Both the position numbers and the translations under genes were made by a program. From positions 49,910,001 to 49,974,000 of the forward strand of contig OX597835.1 of assembly GCA_951406725.2 (NCBI GenBank): DNA of 64,000 nucleotides, in the 5' to 3' direction. The DNA comes from Octopus vulgaris. Taxonomy: Eukaryota. Under the pieces are notes generated by a model that was given only the letters and a program-made list of their open reading frames with translations, was not told the origin of the DNA and did no database searches. This document shows positions 11,996 to 52,620 of the stretch, one piece after another; position 1 is the stretch's first letter, and each line of letters opens with the position of its first letter.

Positions 11996-12189
11996 TTAAG
12001 AGAATCGGTTCCGGTGCGTTAACACTGTTACCCCAACAACAAAAGCAGTGACAACAACTGGACCAATGATGAGAGAATGGTTGAAAACTGCTTTTCTTAT
12101 TCGAACCAAGTACGATTTTATACTGTTTCCCAAACTCTTAATGATACCGGGCTTAGCCTGCGCTGCTGGTTCATCGTTGACAAGCGGAG
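11996..12189 (-). CDS. Orphan gene A, terminal coding exon (C-terminal hydrophobic anchor)
   Basis: Polypyrimidine acceptor TTTCTTTTTCCAG; phase 1; (A)PLVNDEPAAQAKPGIIKSLGNSIKSYLVRIRKAVFNHSLIIGPVVVTAFVVGVTVLTHRNRFS*. Confidence 0.75.
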
Positions 12190-14150: not shown

Positions 14151-14199
14151 GCCAATGCAATGGTGGCATAAAAGATTTTAAACTTTTAAGAGAAAAACA

Positions 14200-16333: not shown

Positions 16334-16538
16334 CTGATGCGTTCTGGTTGGTGTCGAGCCTGATGATGTTGATGTCTGGAGTTGATGCTGTTAATGCTGC
16401 TGCTGCTGCTGCTGCTGGTGCTGCTGCTGCTGGTGATGATGATGATGGCAATAATGATGAAGCTGCTGTATCATGAGCCGTGAGAAGGTAGAATGTAGAC
16501 ATAAATAAACTGAGAAACAATACTGTGTGGAACTTCAT
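16334..16538 (-). CDS. Orphan gene A, first coding exon (signal peptide plus Ser/Ala-rich stalk); exon starts at 16611 with 5' UTR
   Basis: Acceptor TTTTCCCATTTCAG at 16612-16613; ATG 16538; MKFHTVLFLSLFMSTFYLLTAHDTAASSLLPSSSSPAAAAPAAAAAALTASTPDINIIRLDTNQNAS+G; donor GTTTGT; phase 1 matches the 12189 exon, giving 132 aa. Confidence 0.75.
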
Positions 16539-17159
16539 ATTTGTTCTTCTTCTTACTGTTGTGGCTCTTGCTGTTGTTGTTGTTGTTGCTCTAGATGTTG
16601 GTGTGTTCTATCTGAAATGGGAAAGGAGCAAAACCATTAATTGGATTCAAAAACAAACAAAAAATATAAATGTGCAGTTGCCCCTCGGTTGCCATGGTTT
16701 CCCTTTTAGAACGGATCTGGCTTTTGCCATATTAAAAAGACTTTTCCTTCTTTCTAATTTCTTTTAATTTTATTTAAATTATTTGATTTGTAGTTTATTT
16801 CTACAGAATTACCATTTCATCATTTCCGTTTCACTCTTTATATTGTCTTCTTATTTCACTCGGATAGTGATGAGTGATGAGTGACCACTTCATATACTTC
16901 GTAAATCAAGTTTCCACATTGAATAATAGAGTTTCAAATATCAAAGCTGATTTTAGAAATAATCTTCAGCTTCAAAATGGAAAAATGTCCTAAAAAAACT
17001 ACAAAAAGTTTATTGTAAAGAAAATGACTTATTCCAGTTTGCATGCAGTTTAAGGATTCGAAAAGAAAGTAAATTAACTGCAAAGGAAGGTAGATGGATC
17101 CCACAATTCCAGAAAGAGGATGAGTGAAATCCTTTAATTTTATTAACAGAACTTTCCTT

Positions 17160-17520
17160 ATGCCGTGTCTACAAGCAGCCTCCAGGTTTGTGAGCCTCTG
17201 TGGATTCTTTTGGTCTGCACCCATTGTTAGGCTGCCTTCCATGCCATACCACTCGAAACAAAATCATAAAGCATGGCATACACAGTACAAACTTCCCTTC
17301 CCAGTTCAACCCAAGGTGACAGTAAAAGTTCTTACAGTATGACAATTTTCCTGTTCCAAGGTGGTAGGCCCCTCATATGGGATGTCACACGCTGCGATAC
17401 CTTCTCCAGCAGCAACCAGGTGCGTTCAGCCACCAGCTAGGCTCCACTGCTTGTCAGGTTTATGGTCAAGCCTATGGCAGTGGAGACCTATGACATTCTT
17501 GGCTCCCAGAACATAACCCT
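17160..17520 (+). mobile_element. Remnant of a CRE/NeSL-like restriction-like-endonuclease retrotransposon
   Basis: MTIFLFQGGRPLIWDVTRCDTF..FMVKPMAVETY resembles the RPDG..W..G..LVWDVT..F.P.AVET motif. Confidence 0.5.
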
Positions 17521-18438
17521 GCTCCCCGTCATTGGGGTGGAGATGGCTATCTGCAAGTGTGAGCCCTGTTTGACAGATCCAGCACATCTCCCTCGCCATC
17601 TTCTGGGGTTAGGGTTAGGGTTTTGTCTGCTGGTACCATGAGATGGTGTGAATTACAGGTTGACAGATGAGATACAAATAATAATGGTAGCACTTCAGAA
17701 ATAGTAGCTGTCCCAGTGTCCCAGCAATGAACACCACTAAAAGAGCAATTCATTGGCTTGCACAGTGGCACATGATAACCAACACAAATTACCATATTTT
17801 CACAAGTATAAAGAACCTTCGTGTATAAGGAACCCCCTAATTTTGGAAAAAGGTTTTGTAATATTATCCATGTCTAAGAAAGTTCCATATTTTAACCTAA
17901 TTTTTGACAAAAAAGGGTTCCTTATACACGTTAAAATATGGTATATGTAAGCAGTGAATTATTCCTGCACGTCTATTAACCAATACAGAAAGAACTGATG
18001 GGAAGTGGTGGTGGTGTTCCTGTCGATTCACTAAAAATAGTAGTTTCATGATATTATCGGCAACTGCATACAAAGATTATTTTAGGCCCATAGACTCAGA
18101 TGTGCCCCGAGCAACTGCCCAATGTTGCCCATGCTTTTGTATTTTTTTTTTCTGAGACCTTAGGACTCATAACCATAGTGCATAATAGATCATGATCCCA
18201 ACACTCTCTTTGAAAGGAACGTTGATCCGTGGCAGGGTTCAAGGTCATAAATGTTGGAAGTTGATTACATCAAACCCTACTTGACAAGTACTTTATTTTG
18301 TCGACTGCAGAAGGATGAATGGTAAAGCTAACCTCGGTAGTACTTCAACTCAGAACAGAAAGAGTTACAGAACATTTTGTCTGATGTGCTAACAATTCTG
18401 ACAACTGCCATCCATGCTCAAGATGGCACTATGTAAAC

Positions 18439-18712
18439 CAGTGGTTCTCAACCATTTTTTTGGTGGGGGGGGGTCTGTGGACCTCTTTCATTCCTATTTT
18501 ACTCTACTGGATCTCCAGAGCCATTCAATGTATTAAAAAAATCCTACTGTATTTTTATAATCAAATATTATTAGGAATTGTATCTAAAAAAATCGTTAAA
18601 AAGTCTTTTGTGTATTGTAAGAGTTTTACCAATTTATTGCAGATAAAGTTTAACAACAAAAGCTTATCTGGGGCCCCAAGAGTTGTTATGCAAACCTCCG
18701 TTCACAACCCCC
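18439..18712 (+). mobile_element. hAT-type MITE copy
   Basis: Begins CAGTGGTTCTCAACC; colinear with 62217-62470; decayed right end. Confidence 0.7.
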
Positions 18713-19937: not shown

Positions 19938-20069
19938 GATTATTTTCACGAAGTTAGCTAAAGTGTAAATTCATTTTAAAAAATCTGTCTTTAGTAAATA
20001 TTAAAAAAATATTTACATAAATATAAAAATAAATTACTCTGTTTTTATCAGAACATTTAATGAACTTAC

Positions 20070-20270
20070 CTCAGCTTATTGTAAAATATTGTTTGAGAAA
20101 GGTGTTTAAAGTTCGAATTATCACAGAAGATAAAGGTTATATTTTCAAAATAACTTTCGTAATTTTTAAAGCTTTGTTAAAAATCGAAAGATTTTTTGCA
20201 ACCTTCTCTGTTTTGGGGGAATTTTTTTTGTTTTTTTTTTTTGTTTTATGGAGTTTCTGAGATAGAAACC
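20070..20270 (-). other. Predicted non-coding first exon of orphan gene A (5' boundary approximate)
   Basis: Donor GCTGAG|GTAAGTT; local similarity to the equivalent region of gene B at 35721. Confidence 0.5.
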
Positions 20271-20294
20271 TGCGTTTGGTGCGATTTCTTATTG

Positions 20295-20326
20295 TGACGT
20301 AGTTTTTTGATATTTCATGACGTCAT
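20295..20326. promoter_or_regulatory. Paired CRE-type sites upstream of gene A
   Basis: TGACGTAG at 20295-20302 and palindrome ATGACGTCAT at 20317-20326. Confidence 0.5.
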
Positions 20327-20763
20327 ATTCTCTTTTGGCAGCAGCAGCAGCATTTTCTGAATTCTTAATTTCAATTCTCTTAATTTTGTTCCAATTCATT
20401 TCAAACTTGGTGCATCGGTGTGCTTTTGTAAGCCAATTATGGAAAGAAAATTCGTTTTTGCCATAGATTAATGAATAAAAAGGGAATAATTTTTAAAATC
20501 TGCATATTTTGGGTAATTTTAGCAGAAAATGTCAGCTTCCAAATCCTGTATTCTAATTGGGTTGAAATAATCACATTTTAAACTTCTGTGACATTTTTCT
20601 AAAATTTTTCTGAAACAAAGGAATAACAAAACTCAGCGAGAAAAATTACATGAGTTTACCACATTTGGAAATTTTCACTTAATTTTAAAATTTCAAAAAC
20701 TGAGTCTAACAGAAAAAATCCAATTGTGATAACAGAGAGGGGGGGGGCAGCGATGGTGGTAGC

Positions 20764-20803
<40 letters not shown>

Positions 20804-21503
20804 TTGATGATAGTGGTAATGAGTGTATTTATGTGTGTGTGTGTATTTGTGCTTCTCTGTGTTGATAGATTTGTGCGTGTGTGTGCAGGTCCGTGAGTGT
20901 GTCGTTTTCTATGTGCATATGTATGTGAGTGTATATGCGCTTACTCGTTTATGTAGGTGTAGCGAACAGCTATAGTATGGCTAAGCTGAAATTCGAAACC
21001 AAACCCACATTTTTATACATTGTCAAACAATTCCTCGGTCTCTTCTCGTAGCCTTATTGCACTCAGAGATTAATGAGAAAAAGTTGACCTCTTGATCTTT
21101 CTCGTGGTCAGTTCTGATTAAGGACGAAGAACCCTGTTGTTTTAGCTGACCTTATTCAGTAACCAGAAAGTTCTAAAAAAAAAACTTTTTTTAAACTCAA
21201 GCAAACAGCTATCTTCCTCTCCTTGGTCTCTGGACTGAAAGCAACTCTGTCACCATGTAATAATGTGTGCGGAGGTAAACCTCTTTTTCCCGCTAACTAC
21301 AAACGTTCCTTTTCCTATGTCTTTCTCTCTAGCAGCCGCAGGGAATCTAATCTAACATATTCAATGAACCATGGAACCAGAAACAAATTTCTCCAGTATC
21401 TACAAACAAGATGTGTATACACAAATAAATAACTCGATAAAGCAGTAAATTTATTATATATTGTAACGACTAATATTACAATTATCTTCAACATAATAAC
21501 TGA

Positions 21504-23310
21504 CGAGGGTGGGCTGGAAAGTTCTTAGGCTGACGAAGAAGGAGTGTGAAATCATGCATGCATTCATTTCAACTCTTCTTGTTAATACTTGCATCGTTTC
21601 TTTCCAGGTCAACTGACATCTGACGGTTCAAAGAAGACTTCAAAAGTAGCGACTCCTCTTGCAAATCGACAAAATGTGGCATCGTGCTCTTATCAAATAC
21701 TTGCAGGAAAAAGGGTTTAGCCCCTAACAACATTCATACTGACATGGTACCTACATTAGGGAATAACGATCCAGCTTCATCAACAGTGCAAAAGTGGGCA
21801 GATGAATTTAGGAGGGCAAGGAGAGTCTTGATAATAACCCCAGGTTTTGATGTCCTGCAACTGCCACCAAGAGGAAAACATTGATCGTGTTCACCGCTGA
21901 TGGATGACAGGCCATTGACTATAAATCAAATCAAAAAGCCAATGTTGTTAGCATATTTTGTGAGGGAATTGAGAATATTCTGCACAATGAACTAGGATCG
22001 ACGAAGGTTTCTGCTCAGTGGGGGTCACGTTTTCTGACACCCGATCAAAAGCACACTAGGCTGACCACATCACAGGAATATATGACAGCTTTAAGTAGAT
22101 CCAGCTGGTTTCTTTGAATGTATAGAGAGAATGTTGGTAAAGGGTCACCACTTTAGTGAATGTGTTCATAGTGAGGTCCTCTAAGTGGTCTTTTGAGAAG
22201 CGTGTGTAATGAAAATATCAGAAGGTATTTTTATGCAAAATACTTTTATTTATCAAAGGATAACGAGAGCTGACAAGTAATATGAGCGTAGCCAGTGTAT
22301 GTGCGTGAGTCAGAGAAAGCTTTATGAGTAACGTTTGAAAAATGGATTCAGTTGGAAGTCGTTATAAGCTAACAGAGCTGGCGTAACGAAAACACACAGC
22401 TCATGGTATGGCCAGAGTTGTGGGCTGATGTCATTCAGAGCTAGCGGCGCAAAGTTGAAAAACAAAGGGTCTGTTCCCATGCTTGACAATTGATGTTGCT
22501 GGACTGCTGTCTCTTTGCTAACCGGTTAAAACGCCCACTTAACTCTTCTTGGGCAGAGAACTGCTTTTCGGTATTAATACGCACCCAGCCCTGATTGGTT
22601 GAGTTGCCATAGTGCGACTGTTGTACAACGGGATACTAAAAATAGCTTTTCTAACTCTCCACAGATGTTTCCGAACCCAGGACGAGTGTCTGGCTTTCAT
22701 CACTTTGAGCCAGAGACAACGAGACAATCCATGCAGTGGAAACACCTCTTCTCGTCTATTCCAAAGAAGGTTAAGATTGTTTCTTCTGCAAGGAAACTGA
22801 CGACCTCAGTCTTTTGGGATATGCAAAAGGCATTGTATTTATTGACGATCTTGCAAAGAGCCACTCTCTCAATGGAGAGTACTATGCCAACCTGCTGAGG
22901 TAGTTATGAAAGGCTGTCAAGAATAAATGCGCAGGAAAATTGACGAAAGGGGTCTTGTTTCATAAGGACAATCCTCCAGCACTCAAGTCCTTCAATACAA
23001 TGGGTGCTGTGCACGACTGTGGCTTTGAACTGGTTGATCACCCTCCCTATTCTCCTAATTTGACCTCATCAGATTATCATCTGTTCCCCAACATGAAAGA
23101 ACTCTTTGCTGGGAACCAATATCACAGTGACGATGACGTTGTGTCTGCTGATCAACAGCATGATGGCTTGTTCACCAATGGGATCCAATCATTGAAACCC
23201 TGGTAGAAGTGTGCGGACCACACGGGGGACTATGTTGGAAAATAAAACTCAAATCGTTACATTTTGTGAGAGTATCTTGGTCAGCCTATGAACTTTCCAG
23301 CCGACCCTCG
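21504..23310 (+). mobile_element. Full-length decayed mariner element
   Basis: TIRs CGAGGGTGGGCTGGAAAGTTCTTAGGCTGAC / GTCAGCCTATGAACTTTCCAGCCGACCCTCG|TA; transposase pieces TQDE..HHFEPET..QSMQWKH, GVLFHKDNPP, HPPYSPNLTSSDYHLF; frameshifted and interrupted. Confidence 0.9.
22121..22663. mobile_element. Solo-LTR-like insertion inside the mariner
   Basis: Ends TATAGAGAG...CTCTCCACA (inverted, two transitions from TGTGGAGAG), flanked by AATG/GATG; removal restores FFECFRTQDEC. Confidence 0.65.
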
Positions 23311-24056
23311 TAAATAACGAAATCGGTTTCAAACTTTGACACAATGCCAGCAAGTTTGGGGAAAGGGCTAAGTCGATTGCATCGAGCCAAAGTGCCAGAC
23401 TGGGACGTATTTTATCAACACTGAAAGGATGAAAAGCAAAATCCACTTCGGCGGAATTTCAACTCTGGATATAAAACTGGACAAAATGCAGCCAAGCATT
23501 CCGCCTGGCGTACCAACGATTCTCAAGGTTCACAACCTTCAAATGACAATATTTATAATCAATTAATCAATCGAATATTGTTCTTCCGTCGTTTCTCTGA
23601 TGCAAACTTCGTCATTAAACTGTCGTTACATTTTGATGATCCCTGATAAAAGAATGAGTCCTCTCTTCAAAATTCGTTACTTAAAAAGTATCAGACTTCT
23701 TTACAAATTGGAGCCTTCTCGTCAAAATTCGTTTCTTCCGACACAAGAATGGTAGGCCTTTTCAACCAATTGCAGTATATCATTACATTGCACTTAAAAG
23801 TGCAAAGCCTTCTTTTCAACCAAACTTTTCTTCGATCAAAGATGAACAATTTTCTGTAATTAATGACGTACCAAGGCACGATCCGTAAACTAGTAAAGGA
23901 AGTAGCAAATGCAGTCCGATCGAATTCCACGGTTTGGACAGGCCATAAATTGTGTTTTGTTTTCAAAAACAATACAGTCGACTGCAATGCACATCGCTAA
24001 AAAACCGAATTGTAACCTTGCACATTTAAACCGGCATAACGATTTCAAATCTTTAC

Positions 24057-26620
24057 AATTCAATTCAATTCAATTTTATTGGTTCAAAAAGCAAAAGCAA
24101 GGCCATGTAGGGGGACAGGGAGGGTGATCATACAAAGAGTTCAGGCCATTTCTGGTCAAGAGAGACTTTGAACAAAGCGGTCGTCGGCATCTTCACTATC
24201 TCGTCCGGCAGCTTATTCCACTGATCCGCAACCCGGACGGAGAAAGCCCCTCTCCTTCAATAGAGATGAAATCGTCGTAGATAGAGCTTTTTGGAGTGAC
24301 CCCGCAGCCCACACTCTGGAGCAGGAGTGAAGAACAGCTCTTTCGAGAGGTTACACTTTCCGCTTATGATGTTGTGAGCGAGAATGAGATCACCACGGCG
24401 TCGTCGTTTTTCGAGAGAATAAAGGTCGAGCGTCTTCAGCCTTTCTTCATAAGACAAATGCTTGAGACCAAGAACCATGCGGGTAGCCAGCTTCTGGACT
24501 CTTTCGAGATGATGTATGTCTTTGAGGAGATAAGAAGAAGAGGCTTGAATCCCGTACTCCAATATGGGTCTCACCAGCATGACATAGAGCGGTAGGAATA
24601 TGGCTGCTGTGAGCATTCCTAATGACCGTCGAATCAAAAACAGAACTCCGCGTGCTTTATTGGCAGCATGGACGCATTTGGCCGAAGGCGAAAAGGAAGA
24701 ATCCACCAAGATACCCAGGTCCTTTACTTGGTCGGTCTTCTCCAGCAGCAGACGACCCGGCTCGAAATCAAGTTGAGTTGCAGGAGAGGAGTCAACAGGC
24801 AGATGACAGCACTTTGACACGTTCAGACACAGGTCCCATTCGTTTGACCATCTCCAAACTTGGTGGAGGCATCGACGAAGATCATCTATATCACTGCGAG
24901 GAGCGACCAGTTTGACATCGTCGGCAAATAGAAGGGAGTGTTGCGTGAGGTCGTCGGGCAAGTCATTGATGAAGACTAAAAACAATAACGGCCCAAGCAC
25001 TGAACCTTGAGGCACGCCACTGCTCGCACTGGAGACGGCGGACTGCGAACCATTAACTTGGACTTGGAAGGAGCGATCTGAGAGGAAGGCACCAACCCAT
25101 CGTACAATATCCGGATGGAAACGATATGCTTGAAGCTTGAAAAGTAATAAGCGGTGGTTAACCGAGTCAAAAGCTTTGGCAAAGTCCAATAAAACAATGT
25201 CAACAGCATCACCATCATTCAGGATACGCGTCACCAATTCTTTCATTACCAGTAAGTTGGTCAAGCATGATCTCTTCGGCACAAAGCCGTGTTGGGAATC
25301 AGAGATAGAGGCTGTGTTTTGGAGGTGAAGCAACATACTTTTCTTGAGGATGGTTTCGAACATCTTGCTGATTATTGAAGTAAGGGAAACCGGTCGGTAG
25401 TTAAGCAGGTCTTCGTGGCTCCCTTTCTTGAAAATCGGGCAGATAATCGCTGTTCTCCAGTCCGCAGGTACAACACTCGTCGCCAATGACATATTGAATA
25501 GAAGTGTTAAAGGCTCGCAGATGACCGGAGCCAACGCTTTGATAACTTGTGGGTGTATGCCGTCAGGGCCGTGACCCTTGTTGACATCGAGGCCTTGAAT
25601 AACGCGTTCGACTTCGTCCCGAGTGATGACCAATCTAGGCATTGGAGGTACCGATTGTTGTTGTTATATATATATAATGTATTGAGTATTAAAGGAAGTA
25701 GTGAGTACTTAGTATGAAAGATTAAGAAAATGAGAGAGACTGAAACAACGTGTTAACGATACAAGATACTTTATTCGACTGCCGTTGTTGTACAAGTTAA
25801 TTGTTTTGGCGGGAAACAAAGTGAAAGTCCTTTTATCAAGGGAGACAATGGGCGACGTTGATTGTTCATGTTTGTTGTGATGATTATATAACACCGATCT
25901 ATCAAATGGAGGGGGTTCACGACCATCATCTTGTTTGAAAATTGTCGAAAAAGCCTCGGCAAATAACTGACTCTGCTGATAAGGGTCCTCAATCGATACG
26001 CCTGTTGAGTCTACCAACGTTGCAATTTGGTTGTTCAAGCGGGAATTCCGTCGGACATGGGCAAAGGTTTTTGGATTGCGACTGGCGTTTGCCGCGATTC
26101 TGCATTTATATCTGAAGCGTTCTTCCTTTTCAATTTTCACGGCTCGGTCTCGTTGAGTTTTGTATACCACAAAAGCTGCAGTCGAATCTTGATTTTCTAA
26201 TTCAGCCCAAGCAATATCTCTGAGTCGAATTTCTCGTTTAACCTTCTTCGTCACCCAGGGCTTGTGTTTCTTCTTCTTGGGAAGCCCAACGGGAACTGCT
26301 TGGTCAGTCAACCAGATTACATATGCTTTGAGGGACGACCATAGTTCGTCAACTGAGGACATCGTCATCAGGGATCGCCAGTCCAGAAGCGCAGAATCTT
26401 CGGTTAGAATTTCAAGATTGATTGCAGAGAAGACTCTACGTGGCAGCGAAGTAGTTGTGGGCGCAGAAAAAGTTGTGTGCATGACGAACTTCAGGACCGC
26501 CTGATCACTCTTGGCAAGAGGGGCGCACATAGATAAGCCTGACACTGATCTTGGATAGCGGGAGAATACCAGATCCAGCATAGATGACTGCTGCCCAGAC
26601 CGATGCCTTGTCGATGTTGC
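24057..26620 (-). mobile_element. CR1/L2-group LINE, 5'-truncated, nearly intact ORF2
   Basis: 461-aa ORF with GPDGIHP, NYRPVSLTS, QHGF, LDFAKAFD, GVPQGSVLGP and FADD RT motifs; upstream LDLVF endonuclease end; (ATTGA)n tail with AATAAA at the left end. Confidence 0.95.
25656..25893 (-). mobile_element. 238-bp solo-LTR-like insertion in the LINE ORF
   Basis: Perfect 5-bp TSD CCGAT (25651-55 and 25894-98); ends TGTT..TATA / TATATAACA; AATAAA on minus near 25770. Confidence 0.8.
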
Positions 26621-27695
26621 GATAGTTACTGGTATAGCGATTTCAGATTACCTCCCATTCAGATTAAACCCCGGTAACTTGAAATCGCTTTCAGATTATC
26701 CCCGGGGTAATTTGAATTCGATTTCAAGTTACCCCCCTACGGTTCCAGATTACCTCCACCTCAAATCCTTCCCAATCCTTAAATGTTCATCACAGTGATA
26801 GCAAATAGGGAGATAATGGGTGAACCCATCACATGTATGTATTGATGTTTATTACGTGTGGGTGCGTAATGTACATTCGTAAATGAAAGAGAAAGTAAGA
26901 AAGAAATAAAAGAGAAAGTAAGAAAGAAACGAAAGAGAAAGTAAGAAAGAAACGAAAGAGAAAAGCATAGCTTTCATTTAGTTGGCGTTTTCACTTAGTT
27001 ACTTAGAGCTGAAGAAATCTGAAAGAAGTCTATCCCGAGTGGCTATTTTTAGTACACAAGACAAAGATGACAACATTGATTTGATATTTGATTATGTTGT
27101 TAGCAACAAATATGGAGCTCATGTGTCCAAAAAGGAAAAGAGAAAGCAAGTAGAGTTATGACTTGCACTCGAGAGCAAACCAAACAACCAGATATGAGAA
27201 TGCGGCAAATATGCAATGGACTGGCGGTGGTATGAAAGGGTAGATGTGTAGTAAATAGTTTAATAAAGGGTGGATATGTAATAGGGTAGAGGTAATGTGA
27301 TAGTGTAATGGTGTTATAACAATTGGATTCCTTTCACGTTTTGCCACCTAAATAACAACATCAACACGAAAAGAAAACAACTTTATTTTCTTCAAAACTG
27401 TTTTGTTATTTTTTCCGATTTTCTTTAGTTATTTCCAAGATACTTTTACGAAAACAAAGTTTCCAAAACAATTTGTCTTAAGAACATTTAGAATATCTTG
27501 GTTATCGGCAAAAAAAAAAAAAAATAAATAAATGAATAGCGAAAGGTTTATTTAGAATCTAAAAATGAACAGAAGTTCTTTAAACTTCCCACTTTCAATT
27601 ATTTGTTTCTATAAAGCTTGTTTCCAGTTTATTCTTCCTTTTAAACTCTGTATTTCCTGAACCAGTTTTTGTTTTTTCTTCGACTTAAGCAAGAA

Positions 27696-28051
27696 TTAAA
27701 AATAGGATGACATCTGTAGCCCAGTGACAACAACAACAAACAATACGTATATAGAAGGGAAAATTAAGGAAGCGTTGCCCGGAGTAGCACAGGACTTTAT
27801 ATACTGGACGAATTTTGCAAACATCGTCTCTTTGTCTTCTTTTTCAGCCGTCGTCATGTTTTCTCCGTGCTTTCTATCAACCGTATTTTTGATGTCGCCC
27901 TTTACTATCGTCATGTCTTCTTTGACGTTCTCAAATATCGTCTCTTCAACATCATTGTTAAGCAACATCGGTTTCACTTCGTCTTGCAGTAGTGAAACAG
28001 TTGCTTTTGGTGGGATTATTGCGTAGCTAGAATTATCACAATTCATCGAAT
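27696..28051 (-). CDS. Orphan gene B, terminal coding exon
   Basis: Acceptor TTTTTCTTATCTCTCTTCAG; phase 1; (D)SMNCDNSS..acidic stalk..FAKFVQYIKSCATPGNASLIFPSIYVLFVVVVTGLQMSSYF*. Confidence 0.8.
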
Positions 28052-28862
28052 CTGAAGAGAGATAAGAAAAAAGGTTTATTTTAGATGAAGTATGGATGCT
28101 GGCAATATCGATGAGCTCTACAATAAGTAACAAACTATACGGAAAGCTAAATAATTAACTTGGTGGTTTCATTTGAAGCCGCCATGTAAACGTATGGACC
28201 AGTGGGGACAGACACATGCCCGTCTCTAAAGGGATGCACTAGGCGACACTGACCCCTCCCTACGATTCAATGGTGCATCCTCAGATTCAGAAAATACAGT
28301 TTACAAAAATCTTCCCGTAATACGTTTCTTGAAGTCTCGCTTACTTTTCTCCTTATACCAGGACGAAAAATAATTGTTATAATGATAAACCAGATGAACC
28401 AAAGAGACTGGTCAAAAATTCTCCAAGGAAATAAGGGAAGAAGTGATACCGAATGAAAGAAGAAAAAGCAAAAACGAAAAACGTCAACACACACACACAA
28501 TAGACTTGCTGTAATCATTTGGGATAGAGAAGAGAAACTGTGGCACAGTTGTGGAAATGAGCTGCTGCCCAGTGGATGTTAACATAAAGCTGATGATCAG
28601 TGGAAAAGAGAATACCGACGCTGAACAACTGAGAAATCTGCAGTTACTCTAGCCAGATTACAAGCTCAGGTTTATGCCTGTAATTATTGGGAAGCTGGGA
28701 TATATGTAACACTCTGCCTAAATACCAATCTTGAGAAATTAAGCTTCTCAAAACCAGAAAAAGAGAAAGCTGATTCGAAGACGACAGATCCAAGCCATCA
28801 CTTATATATTTATCATTTAAATATGTAAGAGCATGTCTAGATATGCGAGTATATGCATGAGA

Positions 28863-28901
<39 letters not shown>

Positions 28902-29137
28902 GAAATTATTGTATACAGTGCTCAGGTGCACCACAACTTGTCAGAAAGTGCATATAAAGTACATGCAGTAGTGTAGAAATGTCTGGAAAGTGAACATGCT
29001 TGTGTGTGTATGGAGGGGAGAAAATCAAGTGTAGTGTTGGCGAATCTCAGGAAGCATGGAAGTTTTGAAGGATATATATAAAACAAAACATAAATCTGCC
29101 CGTATACAAACATACATACATACATACATACATACAT

Positions 29138-29170
<33 letters not shown>

Positions 29171-29257
29171 TACATACATACATACATACATACATACATA
29201 CATACATACATACATACATACATACATACCCTGTTGTTGATGTTGAAATTCCAATTA

Positions 29258-29330
29258 AGGAGCCAATATCATGGAGAATCCTAGAAAATCCAGGCCCTAC
29301 ATAAACGGGACTAAGCGTTGTAAACTGTAG
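29258..29330 (+). mobile_element. Penelope-like GIY-YIG C-terminal remnant
   Basis: With one frameshift reads ISWRILE(K)SRPYINGTKRCKL, like the I.W.IL....PY....KRC.LC motif. Confidence 0.45.
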
Positions 29331-29626
29331 CGGAATGGGCGAGGATACGAAAGGACTCTCTCGACCCAGGAACATTCTTAACTCCAGAACGGAACTTTTT
29401 GCTGGCTTACTGGAACCCACAAAATAATAGGGTCCCTTACGATCGATAGCCGAAGGGAGACAATCCCCTGTTGTTGACATTGAGTAGCGAGGTTACTTCC
29501 TCATCCATTTTCTAGAGAGGCCATAAGCCAATAGGTTTGGGATCTGATCATATGCCGTAAAGCTAAGCGCTTTATGAACGTGAAACCCAGGGTAGTCCCA
29601 TAGACCGGCCTTATCTAACTTTATTG

Positions 29627-29662
<36 letters not shown>

Positions 29663-29856
29663 AACCACACATGCTTTACTTGGGACTTTTTTCCTTCTCT
29701 CCGGATCATGCCTCTCTCCTCCTTCTGACGAAGAGCCATGCACGAAACGTTACACACCCCACATTTTTTTCCATCTTAAACTGAGCGTAAACCTAATACA
29801 TTTACCGTGTGCATCTTTTTTGTTGTTTTCGCTTTTATTTTTATAATCGATTCGCC

Positions 29857-29897
<41 letters not shown>

Positions 29898-30540
29898 GCA
29901 CGCTGCAAATTTTGCCGTGCACCTTATATTGGAAAAACCGTCTATCATGTTGCCGATCCCTTTTGCAGCCCCCTATAACGTATGTCACCTCCCACTTCAA
30001 CGCAACGAACCCTTCCGTTAACCATTGATCAGTGTGTGGGAGCGTCTCTGTACATCATAGGACCACACACACACACACACACACACACACGGGTAAACGG
30101 AAGGAACAATGTATCATATTCAAACTCGGAACCACGGTGTTGCTGGGTTTCAATCAATGTTTTCCCTTCTGCTACTCTTTCACCACACTTTCATTCAATA
30201 ATCCAATTTTTTATCCTTCAGTTTATCTCTCACCGCATTTCCACCCCACCCACTTCTCTTCTTTTCATTTCTTTTTCCTTCTTCTTCATCTCTCATCTAG
30301 TTTCTCTTTCTAATCTCCCAATAATTTCTGTCTTGATTTCCGCATCACTTGCAGCCAATTGTTTAAAAAATCGTCGATGTAACTCTGCAGCCCTTTTCTC
30401 CACCCCACCTTTCCCCCCTTCTTATAATTTCAATCTTAGAAAGGATACTGTCCGAAACGTTGCATACGCCAATCTTCACAGCAATTTCACGGCACTCTTT
30501 CGGTCACTTTTTCCCCAAATCTAACCAAATTACAACATAC

Positions 30541-30655
30541 CTAATGCGCCCATATTGATGGTTAGATCCTTTGATTCTGTTACTGGATCCTGAGCCGCAA
30601 CAAAGTGAAGAATTGTAACGCATTGCAAAAGAAACATCAAGGAACGGTTTTTCAT
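30541..30655 (-). CDS. Orphan gene B, first coding exon (signal peptide); exon starts at 30736 with 5' UTR
   Basis: Acceptor TTTTTCATTTAAG at 30737-38; ATG 30655 (AAAATG); MKNRSLMFLLQCVTILHFVAAQDPVTESKDLTINMGAL+G; donor GTATGT; phase 1 joins 28051, giving 156 aa. Confidence 0.8.
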
Positions 30656-30823
30656 TTTTGATTTCGTAACGTCTTTCTTCTTCTCGTTATTGGTGTTGAT
30701 CTTATCGTTGCTGTCGTCTTCACTCGGAGTTTGTATCTTAAATGAAAAACAAAACAAGATAAACAAATCAAACATTATTAATTGACTCAAACGAAAAAAG
30801 TGGAAGAGATGACAGTTAAACAA

Positions 30824-30901
<78 letters not shown>

Positions 30902-30999
30902 CGTGTGTGTTTCGGCAGCGTAGCGACGGATACGACCAAGTATAAATAAATAAAAAAGAAGGGAGTAAGAAACGAAAGTGACAAGTTGATATCATGGTG

Positions 31000-31579
31000 T
31001 ATATAAGTTGTGCGAGTCTGTTTTGGCGATCTCTTTTAATATTTTGATCGTTTTTTTTTAATTACCTGCTCATTTCAGTACCTTTTATAAGCTCCTTAAT
31101 TGTCATAATAATTTTACTTGTTTCACCGTTACTTAGCCTGTCCGTAACGCTTCCATGCGATTAGTTGAAGGAGTAGGGAGGGAAGAGGGAGGTGATGGGA
31201 GGTGGGGAGGAGAGGTGGTGGTGAGTGAAATGTGTTATTTTTTTTTTAACTAAGTATTTTTACTCTGTTACTTAGCCTGTCTGTTATGCTTTCATGTAAT
31301 TAGTTGAAGGGAAAGATGAAGAGCAAAAGAAAAAAGAGAGAAAAAAGAGGGAGAGTGTTGTATATTAAGTCTATAAAATTGTGCATAAAGTATATAAAGT
31401 TCATTGAGTGATCATTGTATTCCAATTTTCTTCACATTTCAATGAATAGCGCAAATGAACGACTCTCTTTTGATACAGACATAACACAGGCTACACTTTC
31501 AGGCTTTTGGGATAAAGTTTTCAGACGCAGCCCAATGAGTTTACCATTAATTCTGTGAAATATTCACAGGTCCCGCTAG
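31000..31579 (+). mobile_element. Possible non-autonomous Helitron 3' portion (5' boundary uncertain)
   Basis: Hairpin CTGTGAA-ATA-TTCACAG (31553-69) followed by CTAG|T; internal duplication of TTACTTAGCCTGTC..TTAGTTGAAGG. Confidence 0.45.
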
Positions 31580-31743
31580 TTTACTATATTTTATTATTGC
31601 CGTTAGTTCTTAACGTTTTTCGTTTAAATCTTTTATCGATTATTTTATTGTCATTTCATTTTCTATCTTAACCCCAAAAGTGTTAAGATAGAAAATGAAA
31701 TGACAATAAAATAATCGATGAAAGATGAAATACATGCATACGT

Positions 31744-31816
<73 letters not shown>

Positions 31817-31889
31817 TGTGTGTGTCTGTGTATGTGTGCGTGTGTGTGTGTGTCTGTGTGTGTGTGCGTGCGTGTGTGTGTGTGATAGT

Positions 31890-33790
31890 GCATTTAAAGC
31901 AACTTGATGTGGTAATATACACATTATATCGCCCACCCGATATCTCAAAGCACGATGATGAAGTTGAAGGGGAAAATGTACTAAGAAAACTAGATTATTG
32001 CGTTAATGTGCTTTTGATGGGTAACTTCAACTTCGCGAACGTAAGATGGCCGGAAGGTGGCATAATCTCACGAATGACACGCAAAGAGCACAGTCAAGCA
32101 GAATCCCTGCTTGATCTCATGGAAAAGATGTCCATGAAACAAACCATCCTCTCTCCAACCAGAAAGAAAAACCATCTTAGATCTCTGCTTCACCAACAGT
32201 GGGGAATTTATCTGCGATGTGAATCTATCACCAACAATTTTCTCAGATCATAACAGAATTGAGAACGTCTATCCCGGAAGTAAAGATGTATTCCACACAA
32301 AAGACACCCAAACCCTATCCAGTTTGAATTTCTACGTGGCTGACTGGATCTCACTTGAAGAACAGGAACTCCAGCAAAACTGGTTTCAAGTCTTTCTATT
32401 CAAAACATTAATATGAAACTTAAAAGAATTCCTGTCAACGATGCGAGCCATATGCGTTAAATTTGTTCCAGAGAAGAGAGCCAATACATACAAATGCACC
32501 ATTCTCCGAAACAGGAGAGTCGTTAGGAGACGGAGAATAAAGATCTCCAATTGTTTTATAAATAGCTTAATGACAATGAGAAATTCCTCCTCAAAGGGAC
32601 ACTCTTAGATATCGAAAATAAACCCAGACATTCGCAAGGAAAAAGAAAGGGTAGGAAGAGAAACCAAGGGGCGGGGAGGATAATATAAAAGTTAATCCTA
32701 AAGTCTTCTCCAAGTCTGCGAAAGAATCTATCTCAGTGCACTCCAAGACAGGAGCCACTGTTTGAAGGAGATAATCCACTGACTGCTGACCCCCGCCCCC
32801 GGCAAGTGAAGTGCTAAATAAACAATTCCAAAGTGTCTCCACCTATTCCCTGGGGAATATGCAAATGAGCAAGCCTGGTAAGTTCTTAAACACTGCAGAT
32901 CTACATGTGAAAGAAGCAACCATCGATTATGAGCTCGAACCCAGCAACGGGCCTCGATGGATTTACAGCCGTTCTTTGAAAAAAGGTCACAAGGAAGTTC
33001 TTGCAGAACCACTTCAGATACTTTTTCAGAGTTTACTTGCATGTGGCTAACTTCCTAAAACGTTAAAAGAAGGCATAATATGCCTTATTCATAAAGGAGG
33101 AAGTAGGGCAGATGCTAAAATACACAGGCTTATCTCTCTGACAGCACATGTTTGCCATGGAACGCATTGTCAGGTGGGGGCCGAACACGTTCGTGGAAGA
33201 AAATAACCTGCTCACAGACACACAACATGGCGTCCGTCCGGGGAGAAACCGCTACTACAGTATTATGACTGGGTACTGGAACAACTCAAATGTGGATGTG
33301 ATAAGTTTCGACTTTGCCAAGGCCTTCGACAGTTGGTCATGGGATATGTCACAAACTGCGTGACGTTGGTATCATTGGAAAATTAGGGGATTGGCTGCAA
33401 AACTTTTTTTAAAAGGCAGAAGCCAATGATGCTCTCTCTGGGAAGACATCAATTTTCAGTAGAGTCCCTCAAGGAACAGTACTGGGACCACTACTGTTTG
33501 TGGTAACTCTTTCAGACATGTCCTCAGCTCTGCTAGTGATACAAAAGTATCACAGGTGGTCAACGACCCTGATGACACCCTAAAACTGCAGAAAGACCTG
33601 AACGAAATATACAAGTGGGCTGATGGAAATAACAAAGTAGTTCAATGCTGAGAAGTTTCAAGCATTCTACTGTTAGGCTTAAGTCGGAATACAGAGGACC
33701 AGGGGTAGTGTAATCCCAAAGTCAGAGTCAGGATGTGACCTGGGAAATCTACAGGAGTGATGATGCAACTTTCCATACACTTCATTTAGT
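31890..33790 (+). mobile_element. Heavily degraded CR1-like LINE
   Basis: Endonuclease LYRPPD..LLMGNFNF, then DFAKAFD and VPQGTVLGPLLF motifs with many stops and frameshifts. Confidence 0.85.
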
Positions 33791-33838
33791 CTGCGATGAT
33801 TATACTCGTGTAACGAGGCGACAACCATCGTGAACGTA

Positions 33839-33922
33839 TTGTGAGAGACCTCCTACTCTTTGTGAGAGACCTCCTACTCTTTGTGAGAGACCTCCTACTC
33901 TTTGTGAGAGACCTCCTACTCT
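33839..33922. repeat. 21-bp tandem repeat, 4 copies
   Basis: Unit TTGTGAGAGACCTCCTACTCT. Confidence 0.95.
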
Positions 33923-34679
33923 CTGTTTAGAAATCTCTCTTCAAGAGAAAAGTTTAAAAAACAAAACAAAAAACACTCGTCTCATTGCGAAGCCGCGGAT
34001 ATTTACTCTTGCTTGTTTCTGGACTATTTCACTTTGCAGATGAGTCTTAGCGATGCTGGACCTGTTGTACCTGTTGTACCTGTTGTATTGACTTCAAATT
34101 TCAGCACCGGCCGAGCTGACGACCATCGTCTTTAACATCTACAATAATTTCTATCACAGCATTACACGTTGTGAGAACGACTCAGGCTTTCGAATCCTGC
34201 CAGCGACTTTGCCAGAATTTGTTGTAGCTTTGACATTCATCCGAATTCTCTGACTGCTTGGTTGTTCCGGATTATTCTGATAATGTTCTCTGTGCACCCT
34301 CATCTACCTAGATAATCCAGAATGATTTACAGATGCTTTCTAGTGGAAAGTGCATTTGTGTTTGGCCCCCAAAATAAAGTCGTTGTAATTTGTAACAGGT
34401 CTTTCTGAGTGATTTCTGTGGTGTTTCACTAGACTTTCGCGACACACACACACTGCCCAGTCTTCTCCTTGGCCATCGTCGACAATGACAGGCGAGCTTA
34501 TGTATATATGTATGTATATAGTCATTAGGCAAGTTGAATGCATTTACATAAATACATACATATGTGTATATATACAAAGTCCACTCAAAAAGTGAATACA
34601 CACTTGTCTGAATAACTGAATAAATTTAGTATCAAAATATTTCTACGTTTTCCTTTTCTTGTAGTTTATATATATATAC

Positions 34680-34713
<34 letters not shown>

Positions 34714-35720
34714 ATAGATGTTGGCTTCAATTCCTTGACCGGGTGGTGCGTGGTGTTCTCGAGCAAAACACTTCATGTTACTCTGCGATCCCTTCCGACA
34801 CCTGACGCGTGGCACACCGTGCACCTGTTCAAGCAATGTCCATTGGATGGAGTGGGGAGGGAGCCAATGTGCGGGACATGCCACTTTCATACCGGGTATC
34901 CAACTTTCCTCCAGTTTGGTAGGGGACAAGCGTTATACTTCACTTTCCACACTCTACTTCGACTGGGAACCTGAATCTATTGAAAAGAGTTTTCTATACT
35001 GGAAACGTTGAGTTTAGTTTTCGGGAATCGTAACCCAGCGAAGATAACCTATCTGCAGATTTTCAAACTAGAGGCTTGAGTAGTCAACTGCCTTGTATTG
35101 AAGACATTTCACACTATCCTTATCCGTTAACACGATGGGAAAACTCGAATCGTTCCTCAAAATGTTTCCGAACGCCTAAGGAAGTCTAGCTTTTGCATCG
35201 ACATTTATAAGTCTCAGACACAACCTATATCTCAACAGGAAAACCAGCCTACCAATCGGATCCCTGAAAGATTTACCTGGATATTCATCTCTTTCCAAAA
35301 CAACACAGGTCACCTCATTCGATATGGTTTGACGACGTTGTGGTCAATTAGACATTCAAACGCATCGGTTTCGTCTGCTTTTGCTTCGTTAATGGCTATT
35401 AATCTGAGGTTGCTGACTCGAAGTCATACAGCAACTCACCTGACCCTGCTTCTATTTGAACCCCAGTCCATATGCATCTCATTCTCAACCAATTTTACCT
35501 ATGCCCCCACCACCACCATAACATACATGTATGAAAACATCGGCTAAAAGAACCGTTCCTTTTGGCACGAAGTCCCAGAGAAAAGTTCTCTGCCCGTGTG
35601 ACAGACACTCCTTTCTCATTGTCAGAAATGGTGTGAAACAAGGTTTTGCGCGTTGGAATCCTTTAACCAACGGCGCTTCATTTACATAAAATAAAATAAA
35701 ATTAATAGAAATCAACTTAC

Positions 35721-35915
35721 TTCAGCGAATGGGAAATATTTTCTTAGAAAAAAATTACTATGATTGAAAGTTGCAAAACATTAAAATGTATTATTTGTTT
35801 TTTAATATTCTTCCGTAATTTTTTAAAACTTGGTTAAAAAAAATGAAAGAATTTTTTCAATCTACTTTTATGAAGTTTCGAACTGGAATAAAATAAAAGG
35901 AAATTTTTTAAACGC
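35721..35915 (-). other. Predicted non-coding first exon of orphan gene B (5' boundary approximate)
   Basis: Donor GCTGAA|GTAAGTT; similar to the gene A region at 20070. Confidence 0.5.
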
Positions 35916-35942
35916 GGCGTTTTTTTTTTTGACATTTCATTG

Positions 35943-35962
35943 TGACGTCATTGATTACGTCA
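35943..35962. promoter_or_regulatory. Paired CRE-type sites upstream of gene B
   Basis: TGACGTCA at 35943-50 and TTACGTCA at 35955-62. Confidence 0.5.
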
Positions 35963-36842
35963 GACGGGAAAACCCCGTTTTGTGATAAAAACTGAAATCT
36001 GTCAGAAGTTGTCTCCCCTACAACAATAAATTACGATAAAAATATTTTTATCTTTTACTTGTTTTACGCATTAGACAATGGCCACGCTGGGGCACCGCCT
36101 CGAAGAATTTCTAGTCGAATGAATCCACTCGAGTACATAAAAAAAAACCCTGGTACTTATTCTATCAGTCATAAACATACCAACACCGTTGTCAAGCGGT
36201 GGTTAGGGACACACACACACACACAGTTATGTGTGTGTATATACGACGGGCTTCTTTCAGTGTTTCCATCTACAAAATCCACTCAAAAGGCTTTGGTCGG
36301 CCCAAGACCATAGTAGGAAACACTTGGCCAAGGTGCCATGCAGTGGAACTGAACCTGGAACCATGTGGTTGGGAAGCAAAGGGCTAATGTTGTTTATTCA
36401 TCTTCAATCCTTGGACATTACTGCCTCGAGTGCCGGGACTCGTCACCCACTTTCCGTGACGCGTAAGTAACTGAGACTGCAACATTACAGAGTCACCAGT
36501 CCGTTGCAGATGAATGGTGTGGCTCTGGGAAACGCTCAAGAACACAACCCATCACCCAGTCCGAAAATCGAAACCAAGACCTTGCAATCGGCAGAGCAAC
36601 ACTAGGCCACCTACCCTCACTCTTCCTTACCACACTAATTACTTTCAATTAAACACTTAGTTTTTATGCTCATTTATGGAAACATTAATTTAATTACTGT
36701 TTTCCATGCAGATGTCTTTTTTCTTCTTTTTTTTTTAATTGTGGGACCTCGATGAAGTGGTCGTATTTGTTGTCTTTGTAATTCCTCAAAGACCAACGAG
36801 ATTGATATCATTTAATGTTCCTCTTGACCATAGTAGGAAACA

Positions 36843-38567
36843 CCAGGGAAAAGCACCACTGATGCCATATTCCTGGTAAGACAGCTGCAGGAGAAATACC
36901 TAACCAAAGATAAGCCCCTGTGCCTGGCTTTTGTTGACATGGAGAAAGCCTTCGACAGGATCCCCTGATCCCTCATCTGGTGGTCAATGAGGAAACTAGG
37001 GATAGATGAATGGTTAGTGAGAGCTGTGCGAGCCAAGTACAGGGACGCTGCTAGTAAGGTGAGGGTTGGCGACGAGTACAGTGAAGAATTCCGGGTAGAG
37101 GTAGGGGTCCACCAAGAATCAGTCCTCAGCCCCCTCCTATTTATCATAGTCCTCCAGGCAATAATGGAGGAATTCAAGATGGGTTGCCCCTGGGAGCTCC
37201 TCTATGCTGATGACCTTGCTCTAATTGCTAAGTCACTATCAGAACTGGAGAAGTTTCAGGTGTGGAAGCAAGGATTAGAATCGAAGGGTTTTAGAATCAA
37301 CCTAGCTAAAACCAAAGTCCTAATAAGTAGGAAGGTAGATAAATCACAAACGCCTTCAGGTAGATGGCCTTGCTCAATCTGTAGAAAAGGCGTAGGTAGA
37401 AACTCTATAAGTTGCACCAAGTGTAAGCTATGGACACATAAAAGGTGCAGCAATGTCAAAGGAAGGCTAACTAGGAAAATAGTTTTTGTTTGTGGCAGAT
37501 GCTCAGGAGCAATAAACACTGAAAATGTGCAGAGACCAACTTCCGCCACATTCCAGGGAGAAAAACTAGAAATAGTTGATAGTTTCCGTTACCTAGGTGA
37601 CCAAGTCAGTAGCGGGGACGGGTGTCTGAAAGTGTAACTGCTAGAGTAAGAATAGCCTGGGCAAAGTTCAGAGAGCTCTTACCCCTGCTGGTGACAAAAG
37701 GCTTCTCGCTAAGAGTAAAAGGCAGACTGTATGACACATGTGTACGAACAGCCATGCTACATGGCAGTGAAACATGGACCGCGACTGCTGAGGATATGCG
37801 TAAATTCGCAAGAAATGAAGCCAGTATGCTCCGATGGATGTGTAATGTCAGTGTTTATACTCGACAGAGTGTAAGTACCTTGAGAGAAAAGTTGGACCTA
37901 AGAAGCATCAGTTGTGGTGTGCAAGAGAGACGTTTGCGTTGGTATGGTCATGTGGCAAGAATGGATGAAGATAGTTGTGTGAAAAAGTGCCACACCCTAG
38001 CAGTTGAGGGAACCTGTGGAAGAGGTAGACCCAGGAAAACCTGGGACGAGGTGGTGAAGCACGACCTTCGCTCTTTAGGTCTCACCGAAGAAATGACCAG
38101 AGACCGAGACCTTTGGAAGTATGCTGTGCGTGAGAAGACCCGGCAGGACAAGTGAGACCATAACCCGTGGCCTCTACCTGGGATGTAGCCAGTCCACTTA
38201 TGCATACCTTTCCTTCTTGGGACACAAATGAAAATTGTAGCTATGATACCAGTGCCAGTGACACGTAAGAGAACCATCCGAACGTGGCCGTTGCCAGCGC
38301 CACCCCGACTGGCCTCCGTGCTGGTGGCACGTAAAAAGCACCATCTGATCGTGGCCGTTTGCCAGCCTCCTCTGGCACCGGTGCCGGTGGCACATATAAA
38401 AAACCCACTACACTCACGGAGTGGTTGGCGTTAGGAAGGGCATCCAGCTGTAGAAACATTGCCAGATCAGACTGGGCCTGGTGCAGCCTTCTGACTTTCC
38501 AGACCCCAGTTGAACCATCCAACCCATGCTAGCATGGAAAGCGGATGCTAAAAGATGATGATGATGA
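36843..38567 (+). mobile_element. 5'-truncated RTE-clade LINE
   Basis: PGKSTTDAIF, FVDMEKAFD, GVHQ.SVLSP, LYADDL, Cys-rich insert, RLRWYGHV..RGRPRKTW; 3' UTR with ~63-bp repeats; (GAT)n tail. Confidence 0.95.
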
Positions 38568-42169: not shown

Positions 42170-42243
42170 TCACTTCTTGGTGGCACTGGCCAGAACTTCT
42201 TTGAGAATGGATGCAACATCAACTTCTGGCTCATCAGTATTAC
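42170..42243 (-). CDS. SMARCAD1: SMARCAD1 last coding exon
   Basis: TTTTCAG acceptor; (C)NTDEPEVDVASILKEVLASATKK*; phase consistent. Confidence 0.8.
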
Positions 42244-44254: not shown

Positions 44255-44289
<35 letters not shown>

Positions 44290-44295
44290 AATTTG

Positions 44296-45535: not shown

Positions 45536-45540
45536 AATAT

Positions 45541-46720: not shown

Positions 46721-46768
<48 letters not shown>

Positions 46769-52397: not shown

Positions 52398-52620
52398 CTG
52401 GCAGCAAGGAATAATGATTAACAGTTATTCATAAAATGATGACGTCAGAGGTCCATATGCTAACAAGCAACAATGACAATAAACCAATAAGAGAGCCTCT
52501 ATTCGGTTATTCAACATGCTAAAAAGAACAACTAAATCTCTTTAAAAATTACATCCTAACATTTAACAAAGCAAAAATATAAAAAAAAGAAAAAAGAAAA
52601 GAGACAAAATATAAACTTAC

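What the first reader, a model, noticed from the sequence alone, without database searches (positions are those of the whole stretch)
20064..35962. Both orphan paralogues keep paired CRE-type sites at the same distance from a homologous first exon
Seen (plus strand): A 'AACTTAC CTCAGCTTATTGTAAAATATTGTTTGAGAAA' vs B 'AACTTAC TTCAGCGAATGGGAAATATTTTCTTAGAAA'. About 225 bp (A) and 222 bp (B) further is ATTGTGACGT, followed by a second site (A: ATGACGTCAT; B: TTACGTCA). Each promoter holds one perfect TGACGTCA. Established: TGACGTCA is the CREB/ATF site, and tandem proximal CREs typify cAMP/Ca2+-inducible genes. Inference: regulation is better conserved than the proteins, suggesting stimulus- or neuronal-activity-induced surface proteins. 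Caveat: a lone TGACGTCA also occurs at 52440 in an intron, so the octamer alone is not proof.
Basis: partly seen in the sequence, partly recalled or inferred. Interest (0 to 1): 0.7.

Follow-up and report, generated by a model that had tools for sequence, protein, structure and literature searches.

The report
Duplicated octopus promoters keep a CRE
Two neighbouring octopus-only genes for small, predicted cell-surface proteins share a homologous first-exon region with a perfect CREB-type DNA site, likely inherited from a gene duplication and likely driving everyday expression; induction by nerve activity is untested.

Summary
The motifs are real and at the stated places. A and B are tandem Octopus paralogues (identical or near-identical to O. 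vulgaris, O. sinensis and O. bimaculoides records; no relatives found elsewhere). Their exon 1, exon 2 and 3' UTR align far above chance; coding exon 3 does not align. A's first donor is spliced to exon 2 in 3 of 4 laid runs, and the block is not a dispersed repeat. The sites are not one conserved pair: spacing is 23 bp in A and 12 bp in B, and B's second site is a local 12-bp duplication. The two perfect octamers sit 74 and 77 bp from a second conserved 14-mer holding CATAAAA. The equal distance to the donor is probably a by-product of an A-rich insertion in A. The start site is unresolved: two contigs end about 30 nt past CATAAAA, two run into or through the CREs. There is no consensus TATA. 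A's body is CpG-depleted, the pattern of broadly expressed octopus genes. Best reading: an ordinary ATF/CREB-type proximal promoter kept after duplication. Inducibility and conservation in other species are untested.

The parts
20070..20331 (-). Gene A non-coding exon 1; 5' end variable or unresolved (about 20216-20223 in two runs, 20298 and 20331 in two others)
   Evidence: contigs of X1, X13, X17 leave at 20070 into exon-2 letters (checked); X6 piece also stops at 20070
20064..20069 (-). Gene A exon-1 splice donor GTAAGT
20244..20257 (-).
   Evidence: 13 of 14 identical to B; 20 of 1000 shuffles give such a match
20291..20302 (.). A proximal CRE half-site (ATTGTGACGTAG)
20317..20326 (.). A distal perfect CRE (ATGACGTCAT); likely the homologue of B's perfect CRE
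20369..20702 (.). Old dispersed repeat bounding A's promoter upstream
   Evidence: many contigs under 90% alike in all 4 runs
16334..16611 (-). Gene A exon 2 (5' UTR, ATG at 16538, predicted signal peptide, Ala/Ser/Pro-rich part)
11996..12189 (-). Gene A exon 3, coding part (C-terminal hydrophobic segment, 7-residue tail); 3' UTR continues below
35721..35866 (-). Gene B block homologous to A exon 1, ending at a GTAAGT donor (35720-35715); use not tested with reads
   Evidence: 66% over 157 nt
35866..35879 (-). B copy of the 14-mer, GAAACTTCATAAAA; initiator-like TCATT about 28 nt downstream
35939..35951 (.). B perfect CRE within ATTGTGACGTCAT
35955..35962 (.). B second site TTACGTCA, part of a 12-bp tandem duplication (35937-35962)
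35277..35288 (-). 3' end of an alternative upstream exon of B that adds an N-terminal extension (starts MNIQ)
   Evidence: used by O. bimaculoides isoform X1 and by O. vulgaris CAI9739164.1
30541..30736 (-). Gene B exon 2 (ATG at 30655, predicted signal peptide)
27696..28051 (-). Gene B exon 3, coding part (acidic ectodomain, C-terminal hydrophobic segment)
36036..36380 (.). Dispersed SINE-like repeat bounding B's promoter upstream
   Evidence: 14 further matches in the window
52440..52447 (.). Lone TGACGTCA in an intron of the SNF2-family helicase gene; chance level, not part of the system

Best explanation
A and B are tandem octopus paralogues whose 5' ends share a perfect CRE and a CATAAAA-containing 14-mer at nearly the same spacing, likely a compact promoter inherited from their common ancestor in which an ATF/CREB-family factor would support basal transcription. 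Shown: homology of exon 1, exon 2 and 3' UTR; splicing of A's first donor; octamer-to-14-mer spacing of 74 bp (A) and 77 bp (B); repeats bounding both promoters within about 45-75 bp above the sites. Inferred: the ancestor had one CRE unit about 75 bp above the CATAAAA element; short local duplications gave the extra sites (12 bp in B, a more decayed unit of about 23 bp in A); an A-rich insertion of about 30 bp in A's leader makes A's half-site fall at B's distance from the donor. Inferred: the sites are unmethylated (CpG observed/expected 1.0 and 1.7) and so bindable; one start lies about 30 nt past CATAAAA and others lie upstream, within or above the CREs. The products are predicted signal-peptide proteins with an unstructured ectodomain and a C-terminal membrane segment (A type I; B type I or GPI-anchored).
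For: Exon-1 block score 89 vs shuffle maximum 65.5; exon 2 score 79 vs maximum 41, 3' UTR 101.5 vs maximum 52, exon-3 coding 27 vs mean 25. Same three-exon layout with a phase-1 intron. Adjacent gene numbers in O. bimaculoides (LOC106878719/720) and adjacent accessions in O. vulgaris. A's distal unit matches B's CRE unit at 23 of 24 bases with one 3-base gap (score 36, against 23.5 for A's proximal unit). Octamer-to-octamer register wins under 3 of 4 scoring schemes. B's pair is a period-12 tandem repeat. Half-site pairs with a full octamer: 2 seen, shuffle mean 0.05. X13 and X6 contigs (two studies, two organism labels) end about 34 and 27 nt past CATAAAA. A's body has CpG o/e 0.24-0.31 while its first 1.5 kb is near 1; gene-body methylation marks constitutively expressed genes in O. 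bimaculoides (PMC9476566, passages). [quoted passage not shown]
Against: No binding, reporter or expression data exist here. Contigs cannot place a start: X1 and X17 run to 20298 and 20331, so the CREs are inside some transcripts, and the X13/X6 ends lie beside a homopolymer run that can cut contigs. B's body is not CpG-depleted (o/e 0.72), which fits tissue-restricted or inducible expression. Half-site pairs in general are also commoner than the shuffles predict (9 seen vs mean 1.64), so that null is lenient, and the two promoters are not independent. No orthologous promoter was reached.
Confidence: 0.55

Rival explanations
1. One reading: multiple proximal CREs plus a TATA-like box make both genes cAMP/Ca2+- or activity-induced effector genes for surface proteins.
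For: Two CRE-type sites per promoter and a conserved CATAAAA 74-77 bp downstream. CRE/TATA promoters are the activity-induced class in mouse neurons (PMC5740062, passages). creb and egr1 rise after training in O. bimaculoides (10.1101/2025.10.16.682951, part 1 of 4 read). B's body is unmethylated-type and its 3' region has 6 ATTTA in 1 kb.
Against: No TATAWAW within 300 nt in either gene. A's body is CpG-depleted and its 3' region has 1 ATTTA in 1 kb. Most CREB-bound genes are not induced. No tissue or stimulus data were found.
Confidence: 0.2
2. Neutral leftovers: the motifs persist only because the duplicate is not old enough to have erased them, and have no function now.
For: Exon 1, signal-peptide DNA and 3' UTR all keep about 65-70% identity, so some exact short matches are expected. 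Octamers occur by chance 0.67 times per 64 kb.
Against: Introns and coding exon 3 have diverged beyond alignment, yet a CpG-containing octamer survives in both at matched spacing to a second block, at A's transcribed 5' end.
Confidence: 0.15
3. The conserved letters work in the RNA: when transcription starts upstream, they give two short upstream reading frames (3 and 9 codons in A, 4 and 10 in B) that tune translation.
For: X17's spliced contig (depth 105) includes both A sites; both genes have the two upstream AUG frames in the same order.
Against: ATGACGTCA contains AUG by construction; the first AUG would lie only 5-10 nt from the longest 5' end seen; two runs end well downstream of the sites.
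Confidence: 0.08
4. The two regions are copies of a dispersed repeat rather than paralogous exons.
For: Both regions are flanked upstream by repeats.
Against: Over 20085-20196 each of the 4 runs lays at one flat depth, a single contig, while the repeat next door draws many. The only match in the window is the other gene. Exon 2 and 3' UTR are homologous too. A genome-wide count was not possible.
Confidence: 0.02

Closest known systems
Mammalian CRE/TATA activity-induced promoters (c-fos, Nr4a1, Dusp1, Ptgs2; PMC5740062, passages)
   Same: Full and half CRE sites near the start site, more than one per promoter, with a TATA-like element within 300 bp downstream.
   Different: No consensus TATA, only CATAAAA (the beta-globin form of the box, recalled). 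Binding and induction untested. The genes are octopus-restricted predicted surface proteins, not transcription factors.
Constitutively CREB-bound promoters (PMC3671974, passages; PMC1831778, passages)
   Same: A full CRE in an unmethylated-type stretch close to the start; CREB sites are over five times enriched in the 50 bp nearest annotated starts in mouse and human.
   Different: Mollusc; no ChIP data; here the site can be followed across a duplication whose coding exon 3 no longer aligns.
Uncharacterised Octopus RefSeq genes LOC118767532/LOC118767561 (O. sinensis) and LOC106878720/LOC106878719 (O. bimaculoides); O. vulgaris CAI9739163.1/CAI9739164.1
   Same: The same genes: A is identical to CAI9739163.1; B matches the O. 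sinensis protein at 153 of 156 residues.
   Different: The records give no function, do not link the two as paralogues, and CAI9739164.1 splices B exon 3 into A exon 1, losing B's hydrophobic tail.
Small mucin-like surface proteins (FAM174-like, C1orf54, CD24)
   Same: Signal peptide, low-complexity ectodomain, C-terminal hydrophobic segment.
   Different: Only sub-threshold hits: Pfam DUF1180 E 0.044, 14.7 bits against a cut-off of 27.7; Atlas feature scores 0.78-0.82, which shuffled proteins often reach. Likeness of build, not membership.

Membership tests
cAMP/activity-inducible CRE/TATA promoter | Full CRE TGACGTCA present | tested here: met
   20318 and 35943
cAMP/activity-inducible CRE/TATA promoter | CRE within -500 to +300 bp of the start site | tested here: inconclusive
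   A: all 4 contig ends lie within about 110 nt of the octamer, but contigs cannot show a start; B: no reads laid
cAMP/activity-inducible CRE/TATA promoter | [quoted passage not shown] | tested here: not met
   0 TATAWAW in either gene; a one-mismatch CATAAAA is conserved in both
cAMP/activity-inducible CRE/TATA promoter | Site conserved in orthologous promoters | not testable with these tools
   No genome held; contigs of organisms C and D stop short of the sites; metagenome scan found nothing
cAMP/activity-inducible CRE/TATA promoter | CREB/CRTC occupancy and induction by cAMP or Ca2+ | not testable with these tools
   No such data found
Tandem paralogues | Collinear homology of several exons and same intron phase | tested here: met
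   protein global score reached by 0-2 of 2000 full shuffles and 0-13 of 2000 block shuffles; BLASTP and hhalign alone are not significant
Dispersed repeat | Many diverged copies | tested here: not met
   One contig per run over the exon in 4 of 4 runs; one other copy in the window; whole genome not available
FAM174-like membrane proteins (PF06679) | Score above the Pfam gathering cut-off | tested here: not met
   14.7 bits vs 27.7, in 1 of 6 proteins
GPI-anchored protein (gene B) | Signal peptide, small-residue omega site, hydrophobic tail to the C-terminus with no basic cytoplasmic tail | tested here: inconclusive
   Hydropathy peaks at residues 5-21 and 131-156; no GPI predictor available; the tail is 40-42 of 44 identical between orthologues, which suits a sequence-specific membrane helix at least as well

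The most novel reading that the evidence does not exclude
An octopus-only pair of surface proteins whose ectodomains diverged beyond recognition while a CRE-CATAAAA promoter was kept, each copy separately doubling its CRE by a short duplication; B at least is a CREB-driven, activity-induced effector gene, a lineage-specific late-response marker for octopus learning circuits.
Probability: 0.12. Interest if true: 0.6.

Novelty: new member of a known kind. Interest (0 to 1): 0.27.

Why it matters
CRE-bearing promoters and promoter retention after duplication are well known, so the feature itself is ordinary. It has modest value. No octopus CRE turned up in the library, and the one study read tests only creb and egr1 as candidates, so two compact promoters with defined sites are ready reporter substrates. 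If B proved inducible it would be a lineage-specific CREB effector. The paralogy, invisible to BLASTP, and a likely faulty public gene model are useful annotation notes.

Tried and rejected
Own genome not held, so no genome-wide motif or repeat count. Sequencing-run search: no listed holder is on record as RNA; 'RNA' rests on the tool's guess plus the spliced ends seen. Relatives outside Octopus: none in three word-index searches of near-length proteins (longer and shorter forms not searched) or in a full HMMER scan with a mixed A+B profile (its fourth hit P0013 is a repetitive unrelated sequence). P0007 is an unnamed relative at 68%. Metagenome scan: 212 pattern matches, 0 confirmed. AlphaFold model of B: mean pLDDT 38.9, unusable, so no fold search. 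Atlas: no usable hit. Rfam: only a tRNA and an rRNA fragment. Literature: 0 papers for 5 gene or protein ids, for octopus + TGACGTCA, and for one search's terms; searches listed nothing on these genes (listings only). Supplements of PMC9712504, PMC13230822, PMC11202624 and PMC9476566 gave 0 hits, but the brain-atlas data archive was too large to read, one annotation table is cut, and the methylation and tissue tables use ids I could not map; these unseen files may hold the expression answer. The near-diagonal test used mis-set offsets and was redone. The idea that the 52440 octamer is a branch point was dropped: it lies 48 nt above the acceptor and a closer candidate exists. The B-to-A read-through junction was not seen in 0-of-4 terms: no contig break at 20171 in any run, though contigs drop rare forms. 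Earlier findings of the scan: none.
Full report
Setting. The window is octopus DNA. Both lie on the minus strand below a SNF2-family helicase gene (Pfam SNF2 and Helicase_C hits; the name SMARCAD1 is recalled). Each has a non-coding exon 1, an exon 2 with a predicted signal peptide, a phase-1 intron, and an exon 3 ending in a hydrophobic segment. No relative outside Octopus was named in four protein searches; one unnamed relative of B is 68% identical. No Pfam family passes its cut-off.

Observation. Every quoted string is at its place. The 150 nt above the two donors align with score 89; 0 of 1000 shuffles reach it, and each block is the other's best match in the window. The 10-mer ACGTCACAAT lies 222 and 219 bp from the donors; 6 of 3000 shuffles give such a match near the diagonal, and 11 of 300 give one anywhere in the two stretches. 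Three octamers in 64 kb are mildly above chance (5 of 100 shuffles), so the lone one at 52440 needs no explanation. Pairs of half-sites that include a full octamer occur twice, at A and B, against a shuffle mean of 0.05. That null is lenient, since all half-site pairs number 9 against 1.64, and the two promoters share descent.

Paralogy. BLASTP and profile comparison do not link the proteins. DNA does: exon 2 scores 79 (shuffle maximum 41) and the 3' UTR 101.5 (maximum 52), while exon-3 coding sequence scores 27 (mean 25). Between orthologues the C-terminal part is the most conserved: B 40-42 of 44 residues against 39-50 of 71 or 65 of 90 in the ectodomain; A 51 of 52 against 48 of 56.

The geometry is not a conserved pair. 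The sites are 23 bp apart in A and 12 bp apart in B; the perfect octamer is distal in A and proximal in B. B's pair is a period-12 tandem repeat. A's distal unit matches B's CRE unit at 23 of 24 bases with one gap, better than A's proximal unit does. A second conserved block, the 14-mer GAAACTYCATAAAA, lies 175 and 146 bp from the donors, but 74 and 77 bp from the perfect octamers; 20 of 1000 shuffles give such a block. A carries an A-rich insert of about 30 bp below it. I infer one ancestral CRE about 75 bp above a CATAAAA element, with extra sites from local duplications, and an equal donor distance that is probably coincidence. Which second site is ancestral needs an outgroup.

Reads. I laid 4 of 24 listed runs on A's 5' end; none is on record as RNA. 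Contigs of X1, X13 and X17 leave at 20070 into the first letters of exon 2 (checked), and the X6 piece stops at the same base, so the donor is used. Each run gives one contig over the exon, whereas 20369-20702 draws many diverged contigs: the exon is not a dispersed repeat, its upstream neighbour is. B's promoter is likewise bounded by a repeat from about 36036. Organisms C and D are about 96% identical over 128 nt of exon 1 but do not reach the CREs, so conservation of the sites is untested. The 5' ends disagree. X13 and X6 end near 20216 and 20223, 27-34 nt past CATAAAA, as a TATA-like box would predict, but beside a homopolymer run. X1 (depth 3.6) reaches 20298 and X17 (depth 105) reaches 20331, through both sites. 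Contigs cannot show a start; the fair reading is a start region that overlaps the CREs.

Inducible or basal. In mouse neurons induction goes with proximal CRE/TATA promoters, and CREB binds without activity (PMC5740062, passages). In mouse liver 6,018 of 6,624 CREB sites were at genes that did not change, and the TATA link was weak (PMC3671974, passages). CREB sites crowd the 50 bp nearest mammalian starts (PMC1831778, passages). Here neither gene has TATAWAW within 300 nt. Both promoters are CpG-rich (o/e 1.03 and 1.70). A's body is depleted (0.24-0.31) like the helicase gene (0.36); B's is not (0.72). In O. bimaculoides gene-body methylation goes with constitutive expression, and unmethylated genes include surface and neuronal functions (PMC9476566, passages). 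So A looks broadly expressed and B could be restricted or inducible: a sign of regulatory divergence rather than conservation, though CpG depletion is an indirect measure. creb and egr1 rise after training in octopus (10.1101/2025.10.16.682951, part 1 of 4), so the pathway is plausible, but nothing ties these genes to it. That TTACGTCA is the PEPCK form of the CRE and CATAAAA the beta-globin box is recalled, not checked.

Side result. O. vulgaris CAI9739164.1 joins an internal donor in B exon 3 (27805) to an acceptor inside A exon 1 (20171) and ends at A's donor, replacing B's hydrophobic tail. The O. sinensis, O. bimaculoides and unnamed proteins keep the normal tail, and no contig in 4 runs breaks at 20171. 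A published O. vulgaris annotation merges transcript and ab initio evidence (PMC10700109, passages); that this record stems from it is my inference. The model is likely a mis-join or a rare read-through.

Verdict. A real, above-chance feature with a corrected geometry: a compact ATF/CREB-type promoter likely inherited through tandem duplication (confidence 0.55). Activity induction is possible (0.2), more for B than for A, and untested. No paper names these genes or an octopus CRE in the searches run; unread supplements may hold expression data. New member of a known kind; interest 0.27.

Noticed in passing
window 27805 to 20171 (minus): Public model CAI9739164.1 splices B exon 3 into an acceptor inside A exon 1; B has an acceptor-like site at the homologous place (about 35828). 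Not seen in 4 laid runs.
   Followed up: partly
window 35277-35288 (minus): Alternative upstream exon of B adds a 31-32 residue N-terminal extension in O. vulgaris and O. bimaculoides models; no good acceptor lies above it, so it may be a second first exon or an extended exon 1.
   Followed up: partly
window 11600-11870 and 27350-27620 (minus): 3' UTRs of A and B align over about 280 nt (score 101.5 vs shuffle maximum 52) although the coding exon above them does not; possible conserved RNA elements.
   Followed up: no
window 12000-18500 vs 27000-36000: Sharp CpG contrast between paralogues: A body o/e about 0.25, B body about 0.7, suggesting different germ-line methylation.
   Followed up: partly
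window 20326, 20318, 35951, 35940 (minus): The CRE units carry homologous short upstream reading frames in both genes.
   Followed up: partly
window 10221-10293 (minus): tRNA-Glu(TTC) gene below gene A.
   Followed up: no
window 42100-52450 (minus): Exons of a SNF2-family helicase gene (Pfam SNF2 and Helicase_C), CpG-depleted, upstream of B.
   Followed up: partly
window 54174-54313 (minus): 140-nt fragment of eukaryotic large-subunit rRNA (Rfam E 2.5e-21).
   Followed up: no
window 24257-26647, 22500-23200, 36800-38200, 45400-46700: Long open frames that read like reverse-transcriptase (LINE) and mariner-type transposase remnants; names from recall, not scanned.
   Followed up: no
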